Source of the DNA: a virus
IMG/VR virus record: IMGVR_UViG_3300045988_020086
Length of the DNA: 50,115 nucleotides
Reading direction: 5' to 3' (one strand)
In this document: in pieces, positions 1 through 50,115 of the stretch
Layout of the letters: each line of letters opens with the position of its first letter
Position numbering within the stretch: the stretch's first letter is position 1
Notes under the pieces: model-generated
What the model was told of the DNA's origin: nothing
Databases searched by the model: none
Seen by the model: the letters and a program-made list of their open reading frames with translations, nothing else
Program-made: the position numbers and the translations under genes

Positions 1-141
1 ATTTCCGAACGTCCATCTTGTAAGCCAGTTTACCACAGATCGGGGGTGATAGTCAAGCGGATACCCCAGCGGGGCCGCACCGCTCAAAGCGGCCCCGCCC
101 CACTACCCCGGCAGCCCGCCGGGGCAAACCTGAAAAGCAAA
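1..141. repeat. Direct terminal repeat (assembly overlap of a circular or terminally redundant genome)
   Basis: nt 1-141 are identical to 49975-50115, giving a unit length of 49,974 bp. Confidence 0.95.
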
Positions 142-3675: not shown

Positions 3676-3794
3676 CACGAAATCGGACACTCTGGCAGGG
3701 CAAGCACCGTAAAGCAGCCCCGCCCCACTACCCCGGCAGCCGCCGGGAGATCATCCCGAACACCAACCATAACACGAAAAGGAGCTGTCACGAA
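3676..3794 (+). repeat. Early-operon intergenic module, copy 5
   Basis: Near-identical to copy 1 over its 3' half; CACGAAA at 3676, 3773 and 3789. Confidence 0.85.
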
Positions 3795-6669: not shown

Positions 6670-7197
6670 CTATAAGAGAATATCACCTTCAACCCATGCG
6701 TCAGCCCGGGGCAGGGTCTCGCGCACGTTATACGCGCGTGATAGTAAGGCGGGGCACTCGGGCAGCCGTTCCATGCCCCGGCCAAAGGCCAGCAAAGCCA
6801 CGTTCCGAAGCCGTTTCAAATGCTGGATGCTGTATCCCGCATCGACCTGCACTTCTGCCCATTTTTTGTGGCCGATGTAGTATTCTGTCAGGATCAGATT
6901 GTGGACACTGTCCAGGCGGTCAATTTGTCCCCGAATCAAAGCCTCGTCGGACTTCAAAAGAGCCTGCTGACGTTCCAGACTGCGCAGCCTGTCGCCAATG
7001 CCCAGATCATCCATCTTGCAAGCCATCGCCGCGGTGCTGTCACCGGGCAGCCCGCCGCCGGGCATACCGTCCATGTTGATGCCTTTCAGCGTGTCTACTT
7101 CGTCGTCCAGAGTGGCACACTGGCGGCGGATGATCGTAAGCCGACGGGGAATATCTGCGCAGTATTTCAAAATTGCTTCCGCCTCGTGTGTCTTCAT
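6670..7197 (-). CDS. Sigma-70 region-4-like / DUF1492-ArpU-like transcription regulator (candidate late activator)
   Basis: INMDGMPGGG motif followed by the HTH-like segment ILTEYYIGHKKWAEVQVDAGYSIQHLKRLRNVALLAF. Confidence 0.6.
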   Translation of the reverse strand: MKTHEAEAILKYCADIPRRLTIIRRQCATLDDEVDTLKGINMDGMPGGGLPGDSTAAMACKMDDLGIGDRLRSLERQQALLKSDEALIRGQIDRLDSVHNLILTEYYIGHKKWAEVQVDAGYSIQHLKRLRNVALLAFGRGMERLPECPALLSRAYNVRETLPRADAWVEGDILL

Positions 7198-12844: not shown

Positions 12845-13400
12845 CTATTCTAATTCATTGCCCCACGCATCCCAACCAGGAGTACGCTTTCGGGCGAACA
12901 ATTCAATACGAGGAACATCTCCCAGCAATTCTACAATTCGCTTACGCGTTTCGTCCGGCTTTGCACTATGTTCTTGTATCGGTGTTTCAATCACTTGATG
13001 TACAGCATGGCTCTTGACCCGATCAGCGGCCTTGAATCCAGGCGTTACACCAAGCAAACAGATTTCCGCATTTGCCCTCGTGTAAGCCCCCATGCCCCAA
13101 AAATTTGTATCGCTCTTGCGGTTTTTCTTGATCCAAACAAAGGCGCAGGTCTTGTACTCAAAACCCCACGCCTCCATAACTCGCAGAGCATCGGCAATTT
13201 GTGGAAACGTAGCCCACATGAAGCAGGCCGTGCCCCCCCCCCGCCAGGTCATTGACCGGCAATGCGCAGATGTCATCCGTCGTCATTGTGTGATAGTGCT
13301 GAGCCGCATTGCCCCGGCTTTTAGGTCCTGTTCCACACTGACGGTAGCTCCACGGCGGATCAGCATAGATTACGGAATACTTTTTATCCGGGAAATCCAT
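12845..13400 (-). CDS. MT-A70-family N6-adenine DNA methyltransferase, frame broken at a G10 tract as assembled
   Basis: N-terminal part carries DPPW (YADPPWSY). The C-terminal part CFMWATFPQ..AWGFEY..VWIKK..SAKPDE continues in the +1 frame. G9 would fuse the two parts (..LAGGGTACFMW..). Confidence 0.85.
13233..13242 (-). repeat. Homopolymer G10 (C10 on the + strand) inside the MT-A70 gene
   Basis: Read directly from the sequence; encodes a Gly run. Confidence 0.95.
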
Positions 13401-13916: not shown

Positions 13917-14474
13917 TCAGCCGTCCTCCTTGATGATCCAGACCTGGTGTTCGCCGTATCCATCCCAGTTCAAAGCGTCTTCATGGCTGCCAGAAACAGC
14001 AACGTCCAGGTGATTGCCCTGCACCGCATTGCCCCTGTCCTGAACAATGCGGATTCCTACATCTTCGATGTAGATCACTGTGCCATAGGGTAGGAGCGTT
14101 TGGTCTGCCGCCACGGTCACGCCCGCCTGAATCGGCTGACCGCTGGCCGTGATCCCGGTTCCAGTGCCGCAAATGTGCGACCATTTCTCGGTGCAGTAGG
14201 CAGTGCATTTGAAAATCCCGGCATACTCGACATCTAATTTTTCGTCCAGTTTGCTCATGATTTTCAGTTCGTCCGCCAGATCGTCAGCGTACTGGGCGAC
14301 GATTCCAGCGGTGCCCTCCCAGTCCTCGGCGCGGGATTTGTAAATATCCCGCTGCATCTCCAAGTCATTGATCCGGCCGTTTGCCATGCCAACGGCAATT
14401 CCGCTGGCGACCGTTGCGCAAATCGCGGCAGTTACAGCCAGCTTCGACAGGGTATCAGGTCTCATTTTCTTCAT
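13917..14474 (-). CDS. Membrane-anchored 3D-domain (MltA/RlpA-like) protein
   Basis: N-terminal TM LSKLAVTAAICATVASGIAV. C-terminal FKCTAYC..GITASG..VAAD..LPYGT..IEDVG. Confidence 0.6.
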   Translation of the reverse strand: MKKMRPDTLSKLAVTAAICATVASGIAVGMANGRINDLEMQRDIYKSRAEDWEGTAGIVAQYADDLADELKIMSKLDEKLDVEYAGIFKCTAYCTEKWSHICGTGTGITASGQPIQAGVTVAADQTLLPYGTVIYIEDVGIRIVQDRGNAVQGNHLDVAVSGSHEDALNWDGYGEHQVWIIKEDG

Positions 14475-16398
14475 CCTCCGATTTTTGGAACACAACAGGC
14501 AGGTGCCCATGTGTTTGTGCGCGGAGTGTTCCTGTTACATTCACAGAAACGTCCATATTCTTCCCGCCTTGGTCGTTCAGCACCAGCGATTCCATCAGCC
14601 TTTGATCCTGTACGACGGCGGTTTTATTTCCGCCTGCCCCAGTCATCAGGGTCGGGCTGCATTCTTCTGAATAGCCGATTCCGCCAGAATTTCCAAGGTC
14701 AAACCCGGCAGCACGTTGGATCAGGCTTTGGTCTTGGCGTGTCGCCAGCGTCGCGGAAAGTTCCGTCTGCACCAGCGGACCTTTGCCGCCGCCCTCACAG
14801 CCTTGCCGGATTTTCAGGGTGTAGGCTCGTTCTGCCCCCCCCCCCTCGGAGCTTTCCTGCTTCCACCATGCGATCATGCCATGAATAGCAGTCAGGAGCA
14901 AGGCAGGCAACGGTCTGCCCCCCCTCCTGGAGGCGCGGTCTAAAATGCCATTCAGTGCCGTCATGCTCAAAAGCGACCATCGTGGCGGATTCTCCACGAG
15001 TATCGCAGACAGCATATATTCTTCGGCGACGGTGGGGGATTCCCCAATATTGAGCGTTGACAATTCGATAGGCAACAGCTCCGTAGGACACAGCCTTTGC
15101 CCATTTTCCATGCTGGCAAATAGGCTTATCTGTTCCACCTCCGGCAAAATCTCGGAGGTGCAAAAGCTCGTTGAGAACAATTTCAAAATCCTTTCCGCCA
15201 TGCGACGACAGCGCACCCGGCACATTTTCCCAAATGACAAAGCGCGGATACCTTCCGCCTGTAGCAGACAGCATTTCCCGGATGACCCGGATTGCTTCAT
15301 AGAACAGGCAGCTTCGGTCGCCGCCCAGTCCTTTGCGCTTTCCCGCAATGCTCAGGTCTTGGCAAGGAGAGCCGAAAGTGATGATGTCCACCGGCTCGAT
15401 CTGACCGCCTTTGATGTCCGTTATGCTGCCGAGGTGTTGCATCTCCGGCAGGTGTGTTTTGGTAACGGCAATAGGGTAAGGCTCCACTTCGCTTGCCCAT
15501 ACAGCCCGCCCGCCGCACATCACAGCACACAGTGGCATGGTCCCGCTTCCATCGAACAGGCTACCCAGCTTTACCTCCGCCGCAGGCTTCCCCAATTCCC
15601 GGAAAGCATTTTGGACGAAGAACAGGGCATTCGGCAAGGCCATTCCGTTGCCCCACATGGAATACTCCGCCGACGGACTGTGCAGCTCGTCGTGCCATCT
15701 CTTCACTGCGGCATCGCTTCTGGCTCCATCCGCCCGGGCAATAATCTTCTTCGGTTTCTGCCCTTTGATCTTGCAATTTCTCAGGTACACTTCCCGCCAG
15801 AACTTGGTTTCTTCTGCGTCCGTCAGCGGTGCGATTTCTCCCCAGCCATCTGGAAAACCCTGTAGCCGCCCGCATTCCATCGGCAACAGGCGGCGCACGA
15901 TCCATTCCGGCAGGCGCGGCACATCCGGCTGAATGACCGGGTTGATGTAATTCAAACTCCATCCCCCTGATTCTTTCGCTTGGAGCGTTCCGCTCACTGT
16001 ACCGTTCAGGCGGCTGTTTCTGGCATCGTAGGCCACCGCATGACGATCTTGTGTGTTCAGCGTGAACGAAGCATTCTCTCGGACACCACTTCCATTTTGG
16101 TTTGTGTTTCGGTCAACGAAGTTCCCAGCAAGGCAGAACGAGTTGTAGCCTACAATGGTTCTGTCCCTGTCCCGGCTCAGTGTCGGTGCGGTGTTCATCA
16201 GGCGTTCGGCGTTGGTCTGGGTGGATGCAATGCAGCACACGTCTTTCTCACCGTTCACGCCGCTGCCCCCCCCCCTCGAACCAGAATGGCCTGCGACCGC
16301 ATGGTGCTGGCGGTGTGCATCAGCGAAGGAGCTACGCCGTCCGCATCGTATACCCGTTTTCCCTGCGGGAAGTCCTGGGTCAAGCATTTAATCTCCAT
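14455..16398 (-). CDS. C5-cytosine DNA methyltransferase with permuted motif order, interrupted at two G tracts as assembled
   Basis: ATG at 16398 after AGAGGA. Motifs in this order: ECGRLQGFPDGW (IX), GNGMALP (X), LFDGSG (I), GSPCQDLS (IV), ENV (VI), QYWGIPHRRRRIY (VIII), then TL-type target-recognition segments. Total span is 1944 nt (a multiple of 3). Confidence 0.8.
14835..14845 (-). repeat. Homopolymer G11 in the C5-MTase (core / C-terminal module junction)
   Basis: Read directly from the sequence; G10 would join ..KLRGGG to AERAYTLKIRQ.. Confidence 0.95.
16266..16275 (-). repeat. Homopolymer G10 in the C5-MTase (after codon 44)
   Basis: Read directly from the sequence; G11 would join ..ILVRGGG to GSGVNGEKD.. 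Confidence 0.95.
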
Positions 16399-18920: not shown

Positions 18921-19625
18921 CTACCTCATGTGAAATAAGCTGGTTTGGTTCGTGTAATTCGCAAAGCGTTCTTCCTGCGTCTTGAAATAGAACGGGTCGA
19001 TTTCAAAGCCGATAAAGTCAACACCCGCTTCATAGGCGGCAATTCTGCTGTTGCCACTTCCGAGGTGAGTATCAAGAACTTTCTGTCCAGGCTTTGCGAA
19101 ATTCTGAAAAATCCAGTCATACAGAACAATCGGCTTCTGCGTTGGGTGAACTCGTACTTCATTCAGGCTTTTGTTTCCCTGCATGATATGCCCTTCGGAA
19201 ATGCTCTTGCCCTGCATCATCCCGCTCCACATATAGCGGAATAGTCTGACCGTCTTGAGTAGGTCTGTTGCCGCAATCTCGCAGTCGGAAAAACTTGTTG
19301 CTTGGTTGCACTTATCCCATACGATACGCCCCGGAGCAAAGCCATAGCTGAAATAGTTGCAGCCCCATATAATATAGTGTCGGCTCACTCGCATCAGTTC
19401 GTCGAAATACTCTTTTCCCGGCACTTCCCATGCGGGAGATACTGGGTAATCCCGATGCACTCCGATCCGGCTGACCTTTGATCCATAGAAGCCGCGACGT
19501 TCTGGTCCGCTGAAATAAGGCGGGTCTACCACAGCGAGATCAAAATAGTCATTCGGAAATGCAGCCATTGCTTCCATGCAGTCCATGTTGTAGCAATGAT
19601 TCAATTCAAACGTCTGCGCCGTCAT
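18921..19625 (-). CDS. Beta-class N6-adenine/N4-cytosine DNA methyltransferase (N6_N4_Mtase-like)
   Basis: DPPY motif (VVDPPYF) precedes the C-terminal SAM motif LDTHLGSGNS. Confidence 0.8.
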   Translation of the reverse strand: MTAQTFELNHCYNMDCMEAMAAFPNDYFDLAVVDPPYFSGPERRGFYGSKVSRIGVHRDYPVSPAWEVPGKEYFDELMRVSRHYIIWGCNYFSYGFAPGRIVWDKCNQATSFSDCEIAATDLLKTVRLFRYMWSGMMQGKSISEGHIMQGNKSLNEVRVHPTQKPIVLYDWIFQNFAKPGQKVLDTHLGSGNSRIAAYEAGVDFIGFEIDPFYFKTQEERFANYTNQTSLFHMR

Positions 19626-20019: not shown

Positions 20020-21310
20020 TGATTTTTTGTGTATTTTAGCGCAACACAAACAGGCCGTCAAGTTTTGCTTCCTTGCAGCCTCTTTCATTCGTTCAGTTTT
20101 ACCAATCCTTTCTTCCCACCCCGCCTTTCCAGCTATGCGCTCGCTCTCTTATATAATGGTTACTTTACTTTTCGTTATGCGGTCAGCCCCAGTTCCCGCA
20201 GGCATTGGCGGAACATGGTCGCCGCACTCTTATACCCGTGAATCTTCCGGGGGTAGTTGTTGATCCAGTTCTCCGTAGCTGCGATTTCTTCCTGGGTCAC
20301 ATTGGCAAAGTTCGTTCCTTTGGGATGACGTCTGCGAATCATGCCATTCACATTCTCATTGCTGCCCCGCTCCCAAGAGGAATACGGGTGGCAGTAGTAC
20401 ACCTTCGTCCGCTGGCCGTCGATCAGGCAGGAACGCTCGATCTCGTCCGCCATTGCGAACTCGGTTCCGTTGTCCACAGTGATGCTCTTATATATAGTGC
20501 CGAACTTCTCTGCGCCAAGCTTCCGTTCTATGGCATCCAGTGCCCGCACGGTCGTTTCCGCACGGCGGTTCGGAACAAGGATGATCTTCTCATTCCTGGT
20601 CTTGCGCTCGGTCAGTACCAGCAATGCCGCGGTGCTTTTCTTTTTGCCGGAGTATACCGTGTCCATTTCCCAGTGTCCAAATTCTTCCCGGCTCTGGATT
20701 TCTTCCGGGCGTTTATCAATGCTTTCTCCTGCCGGCGCACGGGCAGGTTCCTTCTTCTTCACCTTTTTATATTCGTTCTTATGTACGCCATGCCTGGGCA
20801 AAGCTACCTGTGTCAGGTTCAGAAACACGCCTTTCTTGATGTAGCTGTAAATGGTAGGAACGGAGATGTGGGTCTTGAATGTCCGTCCTTCTTCCATTGC
20901 ATAGCCATACACTGCCGCCGGGGAGCAGTCTTTCTCTATAATAGTCTGTTCGATATAAGCTGCCAACTCATGGTCCTTTCCGATTTTAAGGTCCGGTCCT
21001 TTTTCTCGGAGGTTTGCTTGATACCTCTGTTCCGCTATATCTGGGCTGTACGTCGGGATTATCTCCCATGTTTTGCCGTCCAGCCTGTCATAGCTGCCCC
21101 GTTTTAGTTCCCGGTATACCGTCGAAGGATCAACACGCAACTTTTCCGCTATCTCTCGTGTCCTCATTCCTTCCTTTTTCCACTTCTCAATGCGAAGACG
21201 GTCCGTAAAGTTTAGGTGTTTGAACACTCTCACGCCCTGTTCCTCCTTTCAATTCTGGCGTTTCTTTGCATTTCAAGCGTAAAAGATACGATGTGCTGTT
21301 GTCAATATGC
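20020..21310 (-). mobile_element. IS30-family insertion sequence (ends approximate)
   Basis: Single transposase ORF in a lower-GC segment lying between two terminators. Terminal inverted repeats are only tentatively seen (near 20028-20045 and 21285-21300). Confidence 0.6.
20175..21233 (-). CDS. IS30-family transposase
   Basis: N-terminal HTH (REIAEKLRVDPSTVYRELKRG) plus DDE core (WEMDTV...VDNGTEF...NENVNGMIRR). Confidence 0.9.
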   Translation of the reverse strand: MRVFKHLNFTDRLRIEKWKKEGMRTREIAEKLRVDPSTVYRELKRGSYDRLDGKTWEIIPTYSPDIAEQRYQANLREKGPDLKIGKDHELAAYIEQTIIEKDCSPAAVYGYAMEEGRTFKTHISVPTIYSYIKKGVFLNLTQVALPRHGVHKNEYKKVKKKEPARAPAGESIDKRPEEIQSREEFGHWEMDTVYSGKKKSTAALLVLTERKTRNEKIILVPNRRAETTVRALDAIERKLGAEKFGTIYKSITVDNGTEFAMADEIERSCLIDGQRTKVYYCHPYSSWERGSNENVNGMIRRRHPKGTNFANVTQEEIAATENWINNYPRKIHGYKSAATMFRQCLRELGLTA

Positions 21311-21406: not shown

Positions 21407-21481
21407 AGATTGCCCCGCTTTTCCTACATCAATACCCCGCGTGGAACGCAGGGCTTCAGGAAAAGCAGAGCCGTGGTCTTA

Positions 21482-22887: not shown

Positions 22888-23241
22888 TTACATATCCTCC
22901 AGGTCAATATCGCTGTTCATGGCGAGGTAATCAAGCTGTGCCCGTACCCGCATTTTGAACAGTTCATCTTCGGACAGTTCCCGCAGGATGAACCACCACT
23001 TGCCATCCGGGTTATCCTCGGGCGGGGTAATCTGCACAAGCTCCGCGTTGTGCAGGGTGTCCGAGTAGGCGCACCCGGTCATATCGCCGTCACTGGCAGA
23101 AATATGCACCTCCGATAAATTGCCGTCGAAAATATCCGCCGTGATCTCAGTCTCCGACTGGAAGTTATTGCCGCCCAGCGTCAGGTTTTCAATCAGTGTG
23201 CCATCAGCCAGCGCAACCGTCCATGTCCGTGTTTCTTCCAT
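22888..23241 (-). CDS. Hypothetical tail-fiber-associated protein (117 aa)
   Basis: GGAAGGAG RBS. Sits in the position equivalent to XkdW, ahead of XkdX. Confidence 0.55.
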   Translation of the reverse strand: MEETRTWTVALADGTLIENLTLGGNNFQSETEITADIFDGNLSEVHISASDGDMTGCAYSDTLHNAELVQITPPEDNPDGKWWFILRELSEDELFKMRVRAQLDYLAMNSDIDLEDM

Positions 23242-24443
23242 GTTGGCTCCTTCCCGAACAAGTCCTTAAACAAGTTCGTCATATTGTGAATTTGCTTCCT
23301 GCTCATGTACTTGTAATTGGCGCAAATCCATGATTTGTAAGAATTTTCGATTTCCTCATAGGTCATTACTCCGGCATCCATTTTCCGCTTGTACGCTTTG
23401 AGCTTCCGTCGTTCTCTCGTGATGGCTTTTGGGTTGATCTTTCGGATAATCCGCCCATCTTCCTGCAAAGAATAAAGCACTTGCAAGTGGCGATACTGGC
23501 CGGACAATTTACAGATGTGGGTTTTCTTTTCGTTGATGATGATTCCCAACTTTTCTGCCCACTGCCTGACCCCGGCCATTACCTCTTGCAAATGCTCTTT
23601 GCTTTTGTCGATGATGTAGAAATCGTCCGAATATCTTCCATAGCCCTTCACTGCGCACACGATCTTGACGTAGTTATCAATGGGCACCGGGAGAAATATT
23701 CCTGTATTTTGTGAAACTTGGTTGCCTATATCTGCGCCCTTCCGCAGCATTTTCTCGCCCGTCAGGGCGGATGATGGAACGCCAATATTGAGCGTTGAAC
23801 GCACCTTTTCATGGTACATTTTCTCGATTTCCTCATCTGCGAAACGGGAAACATCCAATTCAAAAGTGCGGAATGCCAACCGCAGTTTGTCCATAACATC
23901 CGCCAGTTCTTCCGGGTCTTTGATTTCCCGCGCAAGATACTGGCTGAACTGGGCCAATGCGACTTCATGCACAATGTTGTCGTAGTAGCCGGAGAAGTCC
24001 GAGAATCCGATGTAACCTTCATTCGTGCCCTCCCGCTCATAGTATTTTCGCAGCTGGATTTCAAAGCGATGCCGATGAAACGCAACACCTTTTCCAACCT
24101 GTGAAGACGAATTGTCGTACTGCAAATATTTTTGAAGCAGCGGTGTGAGGTATTCGTCGCAGGTAATGTGGTTCACCGCCTTGTCTGCGGTTGCTGCACT
24201 CGTGATATACCGTGCGTGACCTCTTTCCTTGATGCCAAATTTCAAGCCCGGCTCAGGCTTATATGTGCCGTCCTCCATGGCTTTCTGAATATGCGCAGTT
24301 TCGAGCAGATGATTTATCTCGTATAACTGCGTTTTATATTTGAACATCGACGCTTTCATTGCTTTGGTTCCTGCTTCATGGATATAATTTGCATCTGTGT
24401 ATTTACTCATATTTCCCTGAAATAAACTGTACAATAGCTCCAT
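23193..24443 (-). CDS. DGR reverse transcriptase
   Basis: RT motifs include the DGR-typical IGNQVSQ (I/LGxxxSQ) and YSDD (GRYSDDFYII). Lies immediately 3' of TR. Confidence 0.95.
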   Translation of the reverse strand: MELLYSLFQGNMSKYTDANYIHEAGTKAMKASMFKYKTQLYEINHLLETAHIQKAMEDGTYKPEPGLKFGIKERGHARYITSAATADKAVNHITCDEYLTPLLQKYLQYDNSSSQVGKGVAFHRHRFEIQLRKYYEREGTNEGYIGFSDFSGYYDNIVHEVALAQFSQYLAREIKDPEELADVMDKLRLAFRTFELDVSRFADEEIEKMYHEKVRSTLNIGVPSSALTGEKMLRKGADIGNQVSQNTGIFLPVPIDNYVKIVCAVKGYGRYSDDFYIIDKSKEHLQEVMAGVRQWAEKLGIIINEKKTHICKLSGQYRHLQVLYSLQEDGRIIRKINPKAITRERRKLKAYKRKMDAGVMTYEEIENSYKSWICANYKYMSRKQIHNMTNLFKDLFGKEPTWKKHGHGRLRWLMAH

Positions 24444-45727: not shown

Positions 45728-46222
45728 TTATTCTTCCTGCTCATCTTCGGCAGCCTCCCCCTCGGGTGCTTGCAGGGCAATATCGGGATCAGACAGTTCC
45801 ACCAGTGCCTCTTGGATGGCCTTGCGTAGGATGTCGCTTGCATCCGCCGGGTCGGTCAGCTGGGCCATGGTGTCCGCATACTTGGTCGGGATGGCTTCCA
45901 GCCTGTCCTTGAAATTTGCAAAGGCGGTCTTCAAGCCGTTCTCGATGTCCTCCGTGCGGTGGAGGTTTCCCTTGGCTTCCTCCATCTTCATCTTCTCGAT
46001 CTTGCCCCGGGTTTCCTCCCGGTCCGCCCGGGCAGCGGCCAACCGGGATTGGTCGTCCTTGGTGCCGCCGGTCTTGTAGGCGACGTACTGCCGCACCACT
46101 GTTTTCAGGTTGAAAATGCCCGGGCGTTCCTCGGTCAGCACGCCTTCATCCCGCAGTTCCCTCACGCGGCGTTCTGTCAGGTTCAGGCAATCCGCGATTC
46201 CCTTAGTCGTGAACAAGGCCAT
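45728..46222 (-). CDS. Nu1-like terminase small subunit (HTH)
   Basis: Start MALFTTKGIADCLNLTERRVRELRDEGVL...; coiled-coil C-terminus. Confidence 0.6.
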   Translation of the reverse strand: MALFTTKGIADCLNLTERRVRELRDEGVLTEERPGIFNLKTVVRQYVAYKTGGTKDDQSRLAAARADREETRGKIEKMKMEEAKGNLHRTEDIENGLKTAFANFKDRLEAIPTKYADTMAQLTDPADASDILRKAIQEALVELSDPDIALQAPEGEAAEDEQEE

Positions 46223-46940
46223 CTTTGTCACCGTCCTCCGGCACTTCGCCCGTTGCTCTGATCCGCAGCAGTTCCAACCGTTGCTTTTCCAGTTCCATGC
46301 GGCGGTCGGATTCCTCCGCTGCCCGTAGCGCACCGGCAACAGCAGCAATGCGCCCCTGGGTCTTGTACAAGGCATCCTGCAATTTCAGAATGCGGGCAAA
46401 GGGAGTATCACGGCTGTACATTCCCATGGTCTGCACATTGCCGTCTTCCTTCTTGCCACCCTTCCCGGTCTTGCCCGGAACACGCATATCCAGTACGCTG
46501 GATGTTATCAGCGTGTCCGGGTCCATGTCCTCGTACTCTTTGATCTTTTCCAGAATCTTCAACTCCCGCAGTTTGAGAAGACCCATCTCATGCTGCAGGG
46601 CTTCCACGCCGTTCCGGGGTGCATCGTCAAAGGCTCCCTGTTCCGCCGGGGTGAGCTTATCAAAGAAGATTCGGGAATAGGCACCGTCCTTCTCGGCGTT
46701 CAGGTTGCCCGCCGGTGCCCCGCCGCCGGAGTTGCCCGCGGCGTTCTGGTTTCCCGGCTGTCCGCCGGGCTTCCTGCCGGTGGGAGTATCCCACCCGTCT
46801 TTCGACTTCCACCGCCGGACAGTATCGTACTTGAGGTGCAGATCATCCGCCAGCTGCCGGAGATTGACTTCGCCGCCCTTTTTCTTCCGGGCCATGTACT
46901 CAGCGCGGGCGGCTTCTCGCTCATCGCTTCGCCTTGCCAT
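46203..46940 (-). CDS. Terminase small-subunit-like protein
   Basis: N-terminal HTH plus GNQNAAGNSGGGAPAGNLNAEKDGAYS, the repeat typical of a TerS family. Confidence 0.7.
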   Translation of the reverse strand: MARRSDEREAARAEYMARKKKGGEVNLRQLADDLHLKYDTVRRWKSKDGWDTPTGRKPGGQPGNQNAAGNSGGGAPAGNLNAEKDGAYSRIFFDKLTPAEQGAFDDAPRNGVEALQHEMGLLKLRELKILEKIKEYEDMDPDTLITSSVLDMRVPGKTGKGGKKEDGNVQTMGMYSRDTPFARILKLQDALYKTQGRIAAVAGALRAAEESDRRMELEKQRLELLRIRATGEVPEDGDKDGLVHD

Positions 46941-46964: not shown

Positions 46965-46999
46965 ATAAAAAATGCCCTGCCAGACAAAAAGTCTGACAG
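46965..46999 (-). terminator. Terminator-like hairpin 2 in the late-operon leader
   Basis: CTGTCAGAC-TTTTT-GTCTGGCAG followed by GGCATTTTTTATT. Confidence 0.5.
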
Positions 47000-47043
47000 A
47001 GCATCTATGTGGTGCCGCCGGTCCTGCGGCACACCCGGATATG

Positions 47044-47377: not shown

Positions 47378-48444
47378 TCATTCTGTACAGTCATACAGCA
47401 GCGCACCCATCGCCGCTGTACACAAAACATAGTCGTGATCCACATCGTTCAGGATGTTTATTACCGATACATAGTCGCCATACCCGTTTTCTACTAATTT
47501 ATCCTGTATGGTCTTGGACGCTTCAACTGTTGTCGATACAATATTCTTCCACGCGTTTTTCTGTGCCGCATTTCCCGACTTCGCCAGCGTAGCGCACATT
47601 GCATTGCCATCCGACCAGATATAGATTGTATACCCCGAATCGTCCTTTTCCAGTTGATAGTCAGAGCCAAAACCACGCTCTAAAGCATTTTCAAGCAATG
47701 CGGTCATCTCATTCTCTGAAATTTGATGGGAAGATTCGTTTTCTTCACTTACGGCTGTGTATGGATATTCCAGATAAACATACTGCGCATTTGAATCGTC
47801 TTTTTTTCTGACCAGTTCTCCTGTAAGGCATTCACCCTCAATTCCAACTTCGTTAGATACGCCGTTCCAAAGCTGGTCTTTCATGTCCATTGTGACGGTG
47901 AAAACGTATTCTCCCTGCAATGGCCTGCTTCCATGAAATGCGTCATTGCTTTCTGCTGTTCCATTTTGCACTTTAACCGTTTCGCTTTTCTCAAAGTCAT
48001 TTCCTACTAAGCTAAATCGCAGTGTCGCACCCTCCGGCAAATTGGTATGAACAACAAATATAGGGGCATCGCTTTCTCCATTTGTCTCCACATTCATTTC
48101 CACGGGGAACTGCTTTAGCTTGTACGAAGTGATTTCAACTGGAACATTGCTCTCCCACGCCTGATCCTTTTTATAATTATCCTCGCCGTCAATGGTAATG
48201 CTTTCCACCTTGTCATTTTTAGACAACGAGACCGTTTCAACTTCTTCCGTTGTTATTTCAGTAAAGCCAGCAGTCTGCAATTCAGAGATGGCATCTTCCA
48301 AAGACAGCTTTTTACAATCCGTGCTGCTGAATGGTGCCTTTGCTGGATTTTTCAACCCGCAGCCCACCATAAAGGCACAACAAGCAACTGTGGCGGCAAG
48401 AGCTACGAATCTCTTACCCCCCCCCCGGGTATTTTGAACATCAT
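47378..48444 (-). CDS. Lipoprotein moron with PASTA-like segment, frame broken at a G10 tract as assembled
   Basis: GAAAGGAG-N9-ATGATG start. With G11 the N-terminus would read MMFKIPGGGGKRFVALAATVACCAFMVGC (signal peptide plus lipobox). The region is AT-rich relative to the genome. Confidence 0.7.
48417..48426 (-). repeat. Homopolymer G10 at codons 7-10 of the lipoprotein gene
   Basis: Read directly from the sequence. Confidence 0.95.
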
Positions 48445-48478
48445 TTATAAACGCTCCTTTCAATTTTGCGTTATTTTT

Positions 48479-48507
48479 ATTATGGCATAGTATCCATGTG
48501 CCGTCAA
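48479..48507 (-). promoter_or_regulatory. Moron promoter
   Basis: TTGACG-17 nt-CATAAT on the - strand. It lies inside the 5' extension of the track ORF, which argues against that extension. Confidence 0.55.
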
Positions 48508-48791
48508 TGCACATAATCGCCTGTGTTCATCAGGCTTTTTTGTGATTTTTGACCCCCACCCTTATTTTTCGGGCCGGAGGGGGGAAGCCCTTCAAAAAAA
48601 TTGACACCTAGAAAACTTTTGGGGCTTCGGAACCCGCATTCGCCCCGCCCCCGGGGGGCAGTACCTTGCTCATCGGGGCGGCCGCGGTGCCGGAGAGGGC
48701 CGAGGCCGGGCCGGAGAAGGAAGGGGGCAGGGGGGATAGATAAGGCGAGTTCTAGCCCTCTAGGTCTAAGCCCTAAGCCTAAAGCTCTATC

Positions 48792-48819
48792 CCGTTAGGT
48801 GGAGAATCTGACCCCTCCG
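48792..48819. repeat. Left arm of 28-bp inverted repeat
   Basis: CCGTTAGGTGGAGAATCTGACCCCTCCG matches the reverse complement of 49330-49357 at 25 of 28 positions. Confidence 0.8.
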
Positions 48820-49041
48820 GCGTTGGGCTGGCGGCGGGGTGCTGGCGGGATGGCGGCTGGCGTTGTCGGCAGGTCTGGCAGGGGTGCGGGCAGCAGGGCG
48901 GCGGGGTCATCAGGGCGGCGGCGTGGTCCGGCTGGAAGGAGTAGGCCGGGCAGATGATCGGGCGGGCGGTCCGCTGCTCATCGGGTAGGCCGACACCACC
49001 TAGGCCGGGCAGATCGGGCAGGCCGTCACCGTGGGCGGCGC

Positions 49042-49066
49042 GGTCCTTCCCGGTGCTGATCGGGGC
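49042..49066 (+). repeat. Iteron-like direct repeat, copy a
   Basis: GGTCCTTCCCGGTGCTGATCGGGGC is identical to 49176-49200. Shorter TGCT(G/C)ATCG(G/A)GG variants lie near 48667, 48975, 49073 and 49153. Confidence 0.8.
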
Positions 49067-49175
49067 GGCGGCGGTGCTGATCGGGGCGGGCCGTGAGCAG
49101 AAGAAAAGCCAGGGCGGGCGGCGTTGGCCGTTCGCTCTGGCTTTTTCGTTTCTGCTGCTGATCGAGGCAGGGGCG

Positions 49176-49200
49176 GGTCCTTCCCGGTGCTGATCGGGGC
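49176..49200 (+). repeat. Iteron-like direct repeat, copy b
   Basis: Identical 25-mer. Confidence 0.8.
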
Positions 49201-49329
49201 CGGGGCCGTCTGGCACTGGTTCCGGCTGCACCTGATCCACCCGCACGGGGCACCGGGCACGGGTCCCGCTGGCACCGTTCCAGGGCAGCACAGTTTCGCC
49301 GCCGGATGATCCGGCAAAATGCCGCCGGG

Positions 49330-49357
49330 CGAAGGGGTCAGATTCTTCACTTAACGG
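49330..49357. repeat. Right arm of 28-bp inverted repeat
   Basis: See the left-arm entry; the arms are separated by 510 bp of about 70% GC DNA. Confidence 0.8.
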
Positions 49358-49413
49358 CATATCGCCCCATCGGTAACGGTGAACTAGGTTCTATGCCGCC
49401 CTATTATCCCCCC

Positions 49414-49974: not shown

Positions 49975-50115
49975 ATTTCCGAACGTCCATCTTGTAAGCC
50001 AGTTTACCACAGATCGGGGGTGATAGTCAAGCGGATACCCCAGCGGGGCCGCACCGCTCAAAGCGGCCCCGCCCCACTACCCCGGCAGCCCGCCGGGGCA
50101 AACCTGAAAAGCAAA
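49975..50115. repeat. Direct terminal repeat (second copy)
   Basis: Identical to nt 1-141. Confidence 0.95.

What the first reader, a model, noticed from the sequence alone, without database searches (positions are those of the whole stretch)
47378..48507. AT-rich lipoprotein moron with its own promoter and a G10 tract at codons 7-10
A TTGACG-17-CATAAT promoter (48479-48507, - strand) and a GAAAGGAG RBS lead to ATGATG at 48444. After MMFKIP comes a run of ten G (48417-48426), and the frame stops 4 codons later. G11 would read MMFKIPGGGGKRFVALAATVACCAFMVGC.., a textbook lipoprotein signal, followed by a PASTA-like segment and about 330 more residues.

The ATG at 48514 in the track lies upstream of the promoter and has no good SD. 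The region is clearly lower in GC than the rest of the genome, which indicates acquired cargo. A phase-variable surface lipoprotein expressed from a phage is a plausible superinfection-exclusion or host-surface-modifying factor.
Basis: partly seen in the sequence, partly recalled or inferred. Interest (0 to 1): 0.65.

Follow-up and report, generated by a model that had tools for sequence, protein, structure and literature searches.

The report
Poly-G switched phage lipoprotein gene
A gut-bacterial virus carries a surface-lipoprotein gene whose reading frame depends on the length of a run of G bases. The run length differs between otherwise near-identical copies of the virus, as expected of a random genetic on/off switch, and the same virus has similar runs in two DNA-methylase genes.

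Summary
G10 lies at 48417-48426 (- strand), 6 codons after ATGATG (48444). Upstream are a GAAAGGAG RBS and a TTGACG-17-CATAAT promoter with a TG-extended -10. G10 puts this start out of frame; G8, G11 or G14 give a 354-356 aa protein with a canonical lipobox.

Relatives show the tract is hypermutable. Sixteen independent assemblies of the same allele lineage (CDS 97-100% identical where comparable) carry G7 to G12. Protein clusters contain GGG, GGGG and GGGGG N-termini as well as truncated calls. A pure tract persists in lineages down to 36% amino-acid identity, although synonymous sites are saturated (dN/dS <0.1). More distant family members lack it.

The gene is a low-GC moron (44.7% against 55.7%) directly upstream of terS, in a complete 49,974-bp circular genome of a Faecalibacterium-phage-like myovirus. 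The protein is a divergent PASTA domain, an FN3-like sandwich and an α/β domain, with no known family match.

The window has three more G10-11 tracts, all inside two DNA methyltransferase genes. All three break the frame here and all vary in relatives. This makes a multi-locus poly-G "phasome".

The superinfection-exclusion function is untested. I rate it a new variant of a known kind.

The parts
48479..48507 (-). Sigma-70/sigma-A type promoter: TTGACG, 17 nt, CATAAT, with TG at the extended -10 position
   Evidence: 10 of 12 matches, TG present. TTGAC and TATGCnAnAnT are conserved in four diverged lineages. Activity was not tested.
48454..48461 (-). Shine-Dalgarno GAAAGGAG, 9 nt upstream of ATG 48444
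   Evidence: TTGAAAGGAGCG is invariant in the 5-lineage alignment.
48439..48444 (-). True start, ATGATG (MM...)
   Evidence: Homologues in four clusters start M(M/K)F(K/R)I(P/V/F)GGG. The lipobox positional rule is met only from this start.
48417..48426 (-). G10 homopolymeric tract (codons 7-10, n-region of the signal peptide). Out of frame here. ON lengths are 8, 11 and 14.
   Evidence: Lengths of 7-12 in 16 independent assemblies of the same lineage. Alleles 99.2-99.6% identical carry 6 different lengths.
48359..48416 (-). Rest of the signal peptide (KRFVALAATVACCAFMVGC). The lipobox Cys codon is 48361-48359.
   Evidence: The PROSITE-type lipobox pattern is matched, Cys is at position 28-29 and a K lies in the first 7 residues. 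Cys is nearly invariant in the 31-sequence family alignment.
47378..48358 (-). Mature lipoprotein CDS, about 327 aa plus stop. PASTA-like domain about 48346-48116, FN3/Ig-like sandwich about 48103-47753, C-terminal α/β domain about 47716-47381.
   Evidence: AF2 model with pLDDT 84.9. Foldseek gives FN3 and DUF5067-type hits only. PASTA Pfam hits in 11 of 31 homologues. Purifying selection.
46970..47006 (-). Terminator-like hairpin (16-pair stem plus T run) between the lipoprotein gene and terS
   Evidence: This is a pattern match only.
48512..48514 (-). Upstream ATG used by ORF callers for the 378 aa ORF. Rejected as the biological start.
   Evidence: It lies upstream of the -35. It is not conserved and is absent in the P0004 lineage. 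It fails the lipoprotein positional rule.
46203..46940 (-). Terminase small subunit, the gene immediately downstream. It anchors the conserved moron slot.
   Evidence: phrog_1889, E = 1.4e-49. Same neighbourhood in relatives at 30-75% identity.
13233..13242 (-). G10 tract inside the MT-A70 DNA methyltransferase gene (13400..12845). In frame at 9 or 12, so OFF here.
   Evidence: Relatives carry 8, 9, 10 and 11.
16266..16275 (-). G10 tract (codons about 42-45) in the C5 DNA methyltransferase gene (16398..14455). In frame at 8 or 11, so OFF here.
   Evidence: Relatives carry 7, 8 and 11. The Gly run has 2-5 residues in homologues down to 55% identity.
14835..14845 (-). G11 tract near codon 505 of the same C5 methyltransferase. 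The full-length frame needs 7, 10 or 13, so the protein is truncated here.
   Evidence: Relatives carry 7, 8, 10 and 11. Full-length 636-658 aa homologues confirm the reconstruction.
14918..14924 (-). G7 run in the C5 methyltransferase. It is in frame here but is G8-G10 in six related genomes.

Best explanation
The gene is an autonomous moron cassette: its own promoter, an RBS, the ORF and a terminator-like hairpin. It sits directly upstream of terS in a temperate, Faecalibacterium-phage-like myovirus. It encodes a membrane-anchored lipoprotein built from a signal peptide with lipobox, a divergent PASTA domain, an FN3-like spacer and an α/β domain.

Expression is governed by a hypermutable poly-G tract in the part of the ORF that encodes the n-region of the signal peptide. 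Slipped-strand mispairing during replication adds or removes G residues. Lengths of 8, 11 or 14 put the SD-linked ATG (48444) in frame (ON). The other lengths stop translation 0-4 codons after the tract (OFF). The genome in this window has G10 and is OFF.

The same genome carries equivalent tracts in an MT-A70 and a C5 DNA methyltransferase gene, so the phage holds a small set of independently switching contingency loci.

Shown here: the anatomy, the frame logic, tract-length polymorphism among near-identical genomes, long-term retention of the tract, and purifying selection on the protein.

Inferred: that switching happens at high frequency and reversibly within a clone; that the protein is lipidated and surface-exposed; and that it acts in lysogens as a cell-envelope or superinfection-exclusion-type factor whose cost-benefit balance favours bet-hedging.
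For: Anatomy and frame logic.

Natural ON alleles with exactly the predicted N-terminus, and GGG, GGGG and GGGGG variants within each >90% identity cluster, next to truncated or alternative-frame calls.

DNA found by a flank pattern, and so unbiased for frame, from 15 other assemblies of the same lineage: G7, 8, 9, 9, 10 (x6), 11 (x3), 12 (x2). Nine of these have a CDS 99.2-99.6% identical to the window. In a second lineage, G8, G9, G10 and G11 sit on identical flanks.

A pure G11 is retained in three lineages at 65-77% amino-acid identity, where pS = 0.69-0.79 and dN/dS is <0.1. Tracts sit at the same codons in lineages at 36-38% identity (P0080; L059). The tract is absent from most of the 1384-member wider family and from a 30% identity homologue in the same slot. 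It is therefore a derived feature that has been maintained.

Locked in-frame alleles with an interrupted tract exist (L028 and P0025).

The lipobox rule is met only from ATG 48444.

Moron features: low GC, a terminator-like hairpin, and no homologue in FP_Toutatis or any of 50,697 phage records.

Sister tracts in the methyltransferase genes also vary.

The assembly is a short-read-style circular contig (141-bp overlap), and no other gene in it is broken at shorter homopolymers.
Against: No reads were available, so within-population heterogeneity and reversibility are not shown. The G10 call in this particular assembly could be off by one.

In the unbiased sample of this lineage only 5 of 16 genomes are ON. 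That is what random frames would give, so no selection for ON is visible at that level.

Promoter, terminator and lipidation are pattern-level predictions.

Nothing ties the protein to a function. There is no Pfam, NCBIfam or PADLOC hit, PHROGs gives only a family of unknown function, and only generic fold matches were found.
Confidence: 0.75

Rival explanations
1. Sequencing or assembly artefact. The real tract is a fixed in-frame G11 and the gene is an ordinary, constitutively readable lipoprotein gene. The length differences between assemblies are homopolymer miscalls.
For: Long G runs are error-prone on all platforms. The window needs only +1 to be in frame. The frame distribution in 16 assemblies looks random.
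Against: The lengths span 7-12, not +/-1. In-frame G8, G11 and G14 alleles each recur on many contigs from different projects and assemblers (for example P0041 with GGG on 69 contigs, P0039 with GGGG on 53, and P0046 with GGGGG on 3). The sister methyltransferase tracts differ at G7 against G8, lengths that short reads call reliably. The four tracts in this genome need corrections of different sign (+1, -1, +1, -1). No other homopolymer-linked frame breaks occur in the genome.
Confidence: 0.06
2. In the G10 state the 378 aa ORF from ATG 48514 is a genuine second product with a long N-terminal extension. The tract would then switch between two protein forms rather than ON and OFF.
For: The frame is open back to an ATG in this lineage. 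Comparable upstream extensions are called in three other clusters (P0002, P0052, P0057).
Against: ATG 48514 lies upstream of the conserved -35 and has only a weak AGG in front of it. The extensions start at non-homologous codons (ATG, TTG, or an ATG overlapping the RBS). The P0004 lineage has a stop in that frame. Cys at position 52 with no early K/R violates the lipoprotein signal rule. About 30 stop-free codons is not unusual.
Confidence: 0.07
3. Recoding rather than heritable switching. RNA-polymerase slippage or ribosomal frameshifting on the G run yields some full-length protein from every allele, so DNA tract length is nearly neutral.
For: Long homopolymers are known slippage sites for RNA polymerase (established knowledge, mostly for A/T runs). 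This would explain why out-of-frame alleles are so common while the ORF stays under strong purifying selection.
Against: Ordinary phase variation also explains purifying selection together with frequent OFF alleles. Slippage on G/C runs is generally inefficient (knowledge, not tested here). TAA lies immediately after the tract in one OFF frame. Naturally locked alleles are in frame. This can operate alongside DNA-level switching and is not exclusive of it.
Confidence: 0.1
4. A decaying pseudogene remnant of cargo that is no longer used.
For: It is out of frame in this genome and in 11 of 16 close relatives.
Against: dN/dS is 0.04-0.08 against lineages with saturated synonymous sites. The ORF is intact at 344-345 codons in every lineage. 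The only lesion ever seen is tract length. The promoter and RBS are conserved.
Confidence: 0.02

Closest known systems
Simple-sequence-repeat contingency genes with the repeat in the leader-peptide coding region (Neisseria opa CTCTT repeats; Helicobacter pylori oipA/hopZ CT repeats; Campylobacter jejuni poly-G genes). From established knowledge; poly-G phase variation in C. jejuni is reviewed in PMC8437040 and PMC11868660.
   Same: An uninterrupted repeat just after the start codon. Slipped-strand changes move the ATG in or out of frame with an otherwise intact surface-protein ORF. Several such loci occur per genome.
   Different: Here the loci are on a temperate phage of a gut Clostridia-type host, not on the chromosome of a small-genome pathogen. 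The product is a PASTA-type lipoprotein of unknown function.
Hypermutable poly-G tracts of lytic Campylobacter Fletchervirus phages (Sorensen et al. 2021, Cell Rep 35:109214; cited in PMC12823448 and PMC10877375; the paper itself is not held in the library)
   Same: Phage-borne poly-G tracts that create phenotypically mixed phage populations.
   Different: By its title and by how it is cited, that case concerns phenotypic diversity and evasion of resistance in virulent phages of a host that itself relies on poly-G. From memory only, the tracts lie in receptor-binding protein genes; I could not read the paper. Here the tracts are in a lysogenic-conversion-type lipoprotein moron and in two DNA methyltransferases of a temperate phage. 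No tail gene carries one.
Prophage lipoprotein morons and exclusion lipoproteins: lambda Bor, T5 Llp, Streptococcus thermophilus TP-J34 Ltp (established knowledge)
   Same: A phage-encoded lipoprotein with its own promoter, placed outside the structural operon logic and plausibly acting at the cell envelope.
   Different: There is no sequence or fold relation (no Pfam hit at E<=0.1; Foldseek gives generic hits). None of those genes is switched by a repeat tract.
Phasevarions: phase-variable Mod/HsdS methyltransferases (PMC5909438, PMC7383803)
   Same: DNA methyltransferase genes interrupted by SSR tracts whose length varies between strains. This applies to the two methyltransferase genes in the same genome.
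   Different: The enzymes here are phage-borne orphan MT-A70 and C5 enzymes, not Type I or III R-M components. One gene carries two to three tracts. A regulatory role is unknown; evasion of restriction is at least as likely.
Phase-variable prophage surface modification, P22 gtrABC (Dam/OxyR epigenetic switch; established knowledge; the gtr system is mentioned in PMC10883804)
   Same: A prophage-encoded envelope-modifying function expressed in only part of the lysogen population.
   Different: That mechanism is epigenetic, not a change in repeat length, and the host is Gram-negative.

Membership tests
SSR-mediated phase-variable (contingency) gene | Uninterrupted repeat tract of mutable length (at least about 8 for G/C) inside the ORF or promoter | tested here: met
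   G10 at 48417-48426, codons 7-10. 0.22 such runs are expected per window and 4 are observed.
SSR-mediated phase-variable (contingency) gene | Tract length polymorphic among otherwise near-identical genomes | tested here: met
   G7-G12 in 16 assemblies. Six lengths occur among alleles 99.2-99.6% identical. G8 to G11 sit on identical flanks in a second lineage.
SSR-mediated phase-variable (contingency) gene | Length changes switch translation of an otherwise intact ORF on and off | tested here: met
   In-silico alleles. Natural 353-356 aa ON proteins against truncated calls. The ORF is intact with dN/dS <0.1.
SSR-mediated phase-variable (contingency) gene | High-frequency, reversible switching within a clonal population, with a phenotype | not testable with these tools
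   Needs reads, colony lineages or reporters.
Bacterial lipoprotein (Lgt/Lsp substrate) | N-terminal signal peptide with K/R n-region, hydrophobic core and lipobox [LVI..][..][AGS]C, with Cys at residue 15-35 | tested here: met
   The PS51257-type pattern and positional rules are met for the G8 and G11 alleles (Cys 28/29, K4) and not for the 378 aa ORF. Cys is nearly invariant in the family. SignalP and LipoP were not available.
Bacterial lipoprotein (Lgt/Lsp substrate) | Demonstrated diacylglyceryl modification and signal peptidase II cleavage | not testable with these tools
   Experimental.
PASTA domain (PF03793) | Significant match to the Pfam model | tested here: inconclusive
   The window protein has no hit at E<=0.1. 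However, 11 of 31 aligned full-length homologues hit PASTA (best E = 5.7e-6). Remote homologues with 4-7 repeats of this segment are PASTA-positive. The model shows a small α+β unit.
Phage moron (Hendrix/Juhala sense) | Extra gene between genes that are adjacent in related phages | tested here: met
   FP_Toutatis goes from gp50 to terS with no such gene, and tblastn finds none in 50,697 phage records. In this phage group the slot is occupied at 30-99% identity.
Phage moron (Hendrix/Juhala sense) | Own promoter and terminator; deviant base composition | tested here: met
   Promoter and terminator-like sites (pattern level only). GC 44.7% against 55.7%.
Phage moron (Hendrix/Juhala sense) | Expressed from the repressed prophage | not testable with these tools
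   Needs a lysogen transcriptome.
Ltp-type or other known superinfection-exclusion / defence proteins | Sequence membership in a described Sie or defence family | tested here: not met
   No family in Pfam (which should hold the Ltp lipoprotein model), NCBIfam or PADLOC. PHROGs gives only phrog_29396, unknown function.
Phasevarion methyltransferase (for the sister tracts) | DNA methyltransferase ORF with a length-variable SSR | tested here: met
   MT-A70 (PF05063, E = 1.7e-25) and C5 (PF00145, E = 2e-32). Tract lengths vary in relatives.
Phasevarion methyltransferase (for the sister tracts) | Belongs to a Type I/III R-M system and controls a regulon | not tested
   No restriction subunit was noticed next to either gene. 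The regulon is not testable here.

The most novel reading that the evidence does not exclude
A widespread family of temperate phages of human-gut Clostridia (Faecalibacterium-type hosts) carries a multi-locus poly-G "phasome". One tract gates a PASTA-domain surface lipoprotein moron. Three to four tracts gate or truncate two orphan DNA methyltransferases.

Each lysogen or burst would then be a mixture of envelope states and methylation states. This would be a phage-encoded bet-hedging system. The methylation states could, for example, balance classical restriction against methylation-dependent restriction. The envelope states could balance exclusion benefit against the cost of the lipoprotein.

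It would also be the first SSR contingency system described in phages of Gram-positive gut commensals.
Probability: 0.5. Interest if true: 0.75.

Novelty: new variant of a known kind. Interest (0 to 1): 0.62.

Why it matters
SSR contingency loci are textbook features of a few host-adapted pathogens. In phages I found them described only for lytic Campylobacter phages. I found no paper reporting them in phages of Faecalibacterium or related gut commensals.

The tract-bearing methyltransferase clusters have thousands of member sequences in public gut metagenomes, and the lipoprotein clusters have hundreds. If the switching is real, three things follow:
1. Gene callers systematically mis-annotate these genes, giving wrong starts and split ORFs.
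2. Lysogens of a major gut commensal are phenotypically heterogeneous at the envelope and in phage or host DNA methylation.
3. It gives a simple, testable handle on an uncharacterised, widespread PASTA-lipoprotein family (1384 representative clusters) and on how temperate gut phages hedge against restriction and superinfection.

Tried and rejected
- First flank pattern was mis-specified, with 5 fixed N where the window has 4. It found nothing in viral contigs or the window and was corrected.
- Genome contigs: neither the DNA pattern nor a protein query found a relative in the species-representative genomes. The host is therefore inferred only from TerL similarity (59.5%) to Faecalibacterium phages FP_Toutatis and Lelie and a short DNA match.
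- First AF2 run with 11 close sequences gave pLDDT 51 and was unusable. Adding two homologues at 30-37% identity gave 84.9.
- The profile search of PDB sequences found nothing at E<=1. Foldseek against PDB and BFVD gave only generic FN3, adnectin and DUF5067 matches with TM about 0.2, so no functional assignment was possible.
- The second protein search, using a profile, added only 4 sequences.
- The CJIE1 prophage paper (PMC4004267) looked like a precedent. Its homopolymeric tracts are in host genes, not prophage genes, so I rejected it as a precedent.
- I considered whether the C5 methyltransferase reconstruction across two tracts was an artefact, because FP_Toutatis gp14 resembles an alternative frame. 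Full-length homologues of 636-658 aa with 100% coverage support the single 645 aa ORF.
- I looked for a link between ON state and being integrated (long bacterial contigs). Both ON and OFF occur on contigs of 63-220 kb, so no pattern emerged.
- A Markov simulation timed out and was replaced by an analytic expectation.
Full report
OBSERVATION

On the - strand the sequence reads TTGACG(48507)-17 nt-CATAAT(48479), with TG at the extended -10 position. GAAAGGAG follows at 48461-48454, then ATGATG from 48444, TTCAAAATACCC, ten G (48426-48417) and TAAGAG.

From ATG 48444 the G10 allele gives MMFKIPGGGVRDS*. G8, G11 or G14 give 354-356 aa proteins beginning MMFKIPGGG(G)KRFVALAATVACCAFMVGC. G9 and G12 stop on the TAA that abuts the tract. 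G10 is in frame only with ATG 48514, which is why mechanical ORF listing returns a 378 aa ORF.

A first-order Markov model of the window expects 0.22 G/C runs of 10 or more. Four are present (P = 8e-5), and there is nothing between length 7 and length 10. The CDS is the lowest-GC kilobase of the genome, 44.7% against 55.7%.

WHICH START IS REAL

Ten homologous clusters were found at 58-99% identity, none with a Pfam domain.

An alignment of the 5' regions of four lineages plus one interrupted allele shows these elements conserved while the surrounding bases diverge: TTGAC, the TG-extended -10, TTGAAAGGAGCG, and ATGA(A/T)GTTCA(A/G)AAT.

The upstream extension is not conserved. Its start is ATG in the window lineage, a different ATG in P0002, TTG in the P0039 lineage, and an ATG overlapping the RBS in P0057. 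In the P0004 lineage that frame holds a stop codon.

The PROSITE-style lipoprotein rule has three parts: the pattern, Cys at residue 15-35, and K/R within the first 7 residues. It is met from ATG 48444 (Cys 28/29) and fails from ATG 48514 (Cys 52). ATG 48444 is therefore the biological start, and this genome's allele is OFF.

IS THE TRACT HYPERMUTABLE?

I searched public viral and metagenome contigs with a pattern made only of the flanks. This sampling is blind to tract length and frame.

In the window's own lineage there are 15 further assemblies. Their G runs are 7, 8, 9, 9, 10 (x6), 11 (x3) and 12 (x2). The preceding C run also varies (CC, CCC, CCCC).

Nine of them have a CDS 99.2-99.6% identical to the window, yet they carry six different lengths. 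In the P0004 lineage (75% amino-acid identity), identical flanks carry G8, G9, G10 and G11.

At the protein level, every >90% identity cluster contains three kinds of member: GGG, GGGG and GGGGG N-termini (353-356 aa), truncated calls (309-330 aa), and sometimes alternative-frame calls (361-382 aa). Each recurs on many contigs from different projects.

The range of 7-12 and the recurrence of in-frame 8, 11 and 14 alleles are not what miscalls of +/-1 would give. The window itself is a short-read-type circular assembly with a 141-bp terminal overlap, and it has no other homopolymer-linked frame breaks.

In the unbiased sample, 5 genomes are ON, 4 are in the upstream frame and 7 are OFF. That is about random, so the sample does not show selection for ON. 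In the listed cluster members, which are not an unbiased sample, roughly 59% of contigs are ON.

IS THE GENE ALIVE, AND IS THE TRACT SELECTED?

Against three diverged lineages pN is 0.13-0.21, while pS is 0.69-0.79 (saturated). dN/dS is 0.04-0.08 where it can be calculated. Every lineage keeps a 344-345 codon ORF after the tract.

Despite saturated synonymous sites, L001, L015 and L052 all keep a pure G11. A representative at 38% identity begins MRTKIFGGGGK (P0080).

A lineage at 36% identity has ATGAAAATGTCACAAATTC-G12-TACGCTGG. It is out of frame there; G10 or G13 would give MKMSQIRGGG(G)TLVAVMLAVTLTAC.

By contrast, most of the 1384 representative relatives have ordinary MKK-type n-regions. 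A 30% identity homologue in the same genomic slot has no tract. The tract is therefore a derived feature that has been maintained for its own sake.

Alleles with an interrupted tract exist and are in frame (CGGGGAGGG, giving MKFKIGEGK, on 49 contigs).

THE PROTEIN

The window protein has no Pfam, NCBIfam or PADLOC family. PHROGs gives only phrog_29396, of unknown function.

A profile search of 1.84 billion representatives finds a large modular family. Residues about 5-99 recur 4-7 times in 500-940 aa proteins. Residues about 98-220 and about 222-341 also occur separately.

Those repeat proteins, and 11 of 31 full-length family members, hit Pfam PASTA.

AlphaFold2 with 12 sequences gives pLDDT 84.9: a small α+β domain, a β-sandwich and a C-terminal α/β domain. 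Foldseek finds only FN3, adnectin and DUF5067-type sandwiches, and the PDB sequence search finds nothing.

The function is therefore inferred: a membrane-anchored, wall-facing protein. PASTA domains bind peptidoglycan fragments (established knowledge).

CONTEXT

The window is a complete 49,974-bp circular genome. TerL is 59.5% identical to TerL of Faecalibacterium phages FP_Toutatis and Lelie.

The lipoprotein gene is followed by a terminator-like hairpin (47006-46970). Downstream come terS (phrog_1889), a second small terminase-like ORF, GpA-type TerL, the portal and ClpP.

The same slot upstream of terS holds homologues down to 30% identity. FP_Toutatis has nothing there, and no record of the 50,697-phage collection encodes a relative.

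Relatives lie on bacterial contigs of 63-369 kb, so the phage is temperate.

Together with its own promoter and low GC, this meets the sequence-level definition of a moron.

THE OTHER TRACTS

The only other runs of 10 or more are also poly-G on the coding strand, and all lie in DNA methyltransferase genes.

- MT-A70 gene (PF05063): G10 at 13233-13242 splits the gene. In-frame lengths are 9 and 12. Relatives have 8, 8, 9, 10 (x4), 11 and two interrupted tracts.
- C5 methyltransferase gene (PF00145), 645 aa when reconstructed: G10 at 16266-16275 (in frame at 8 or 11) and G11 at 14835-14845 (in frame at 7, 10 or 13) both break it.
- Relatives at those two sites have 7, 7, 8 (x4), 11 and 7 (x8), 8 (x5), 10, 11 respectively.
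- The G7 at 14918-14924 is G8-G10 in six relatives.

Full-length homologues of 636-658 aa with 100% coverage validate the reconstruction. The first Gly run varies from 2 to 5 residues in homologues down to 55% identity. Clusters of thousands of members start just after it or in the alternative frame.

The cultured FP_Toutatis has exactly one long run, a G9, and it lies in its C5 methyltransferase gp14.

In the window all four long tracts are OFF. They need corrections of different sign, which again argues against a systematic length-calling bias.

MECHANISM

The best reading (0.75) is classical SSR phase variation, located on a temperate phage. Slipped-strand mispairing changes the G run. Only lengths of 3n+2 connect the SD-linked ATG to the lipoprotein ORF. 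Progeny lysogens or virions are mixtures of ON and OFF.

Rival readings and my estimates:
- Assembly error: 0.06.
- A real 378 aa isoform: 0.07.
- Recoding by transcriptional or ribosomal slippage, which may coexist with DNA-level switching: 0.10.
- Pseudogene: 0.02.

What the lipoprotein does is open. An envelope or superinfection-exclusion role is plausible by analogy with Ltp, Llp and Bor, but no membership test supports it.

KNOWN RELATIVES AND NOVELTY

Mechanistically this is the opa, oipA or Campylobacter poly-G design. The only phage precedent I could find is poly-G tracts in lytic Campylobacter phages (Sorensen et al. 2021, cited in PMC12823448 and PMC10877375). Phase-variable methyltransferases are known as chromosomal phasevarions (PMC5909438, PMC7383803).

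Full-text searches found nothing on poly-G switching in Faecalibacterium or other gut-commensal phages, or on a tract-gated phage lipoprotein.

I rate it a new variant of a known kind. The interest is moderate to high because the phenomenon is abundant in gut metagenomes, is multi-locus, and is directly testable.

Noticed in passing
window 13233-13242, 14835-14845, 16266-16275 (and G7 at 14918-14924): Three further G10-11 tracts, all poly-G on the coding strand, sit inside an MT-A70 and a C5 DNA methyltransferase gene. All break the frame here and all vary in length in related phages. The 14918 run is G8-10 in six relatives.
   Followed up: yes
window 1-141 and 49975-50115: An exact 141-bp terminal direct repeat. 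The window is a circularly closed assembly of a 49,974-bp genome. The overlap length suggests a k = 141 short-read assembler.
   Followed up: yes
window 57-109, 510-560, 1671-1723, 1964-2016, 2638-2687, 3683-3734 (+ strand; 50031-50083 is the repeat of the first): Six distinct copies of the Rfam RAGATH-5 motif (63-72 bits, gathering score 50). Most lie just upstream of a small + strand ORF in the block transcribed opposite to the rest of the genome. The arrangement looks like a ribozyme-punctuated polycistronic unit.
   Followed up: partly
window 20175-21233 (-) and 21409-21474 (-): An IS30-type transposase (HTH_38 plus rve) lies inside the phage genome. A DUF3800-VIII RNA motif (67.6 bits) sits next to it.
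   Followed up: no
window 23193-24443 (-): A reverse transcriptase ORF (RVT_1, E = 6e-11). FP_Toutatis has a DGR (Avd plus RT) in the equivalent place, so this phage probably combines a DGR with the poly-G tracts.
   Followed up: no
window 48650-49360: A GC-rich stretch with no convincing ORF, just upstream of the lipoprotein promoter. It holds about 5 copies of a motif like GGTGCTGATCGGGGC (shown on the + strand; the - strand reads CCCGATCAGCACC) and is bounded by a 32-nt inverted repeat (48788-48819 and 49330-49361, 88% complementary). It could be a cos/packaging region, a small mobile element or a structured RNA. Several Logan contigs of relatives end about 1.35 kb upstream of the lipoprotein gene.
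   Followed up: partly
window 14455-16398 (-): In the 645 aa C5 methyltransferase the Pfam match (profile positions 2-164, motifs I to about VI) starts only at residue 276. The N-terminal 275 residues contain RLQGFPDGW and GNGMALP, which look like motifs IX and X. This suggests a circularly permuted motif order, judged by eye from memory of the motifs and not tested.
   Followed up: no
L056 (FP_Toutatis NC_047915) 6783-6791: The only G/C run of 7 or more in the first 50 kb of this cultured phage (record length 54,725 bp) is a G9 inside DNA methyltransferase gp14. In the annotated frame, homology to the window enzyme ends just before the tract (aligned through gp14 residue 95; the tract is at residues 108-110). 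The methyltransferase region is annotated as several short ORFs (gp13-gp15), so the reference may be in an OFF state.
   Followed up: partly
window 14835-14845 and relatives L031-L051: Tract C of the C5 methyltransferase is 7, 8, 10 or 11 in 16 genomes and never 9 or 12. It therefore toggles between a full-length (645 aa) form and a form of about 530 aa. The sample is small and the pattern is unexplained.
   Followed up: partly
window 18921-19625 (-): A third DNA methyltransferase-like ORF, with an N6_N4_Mtase match to the C-terminal part of the profile only. It has no homopolymer tract.
   Followed up: no
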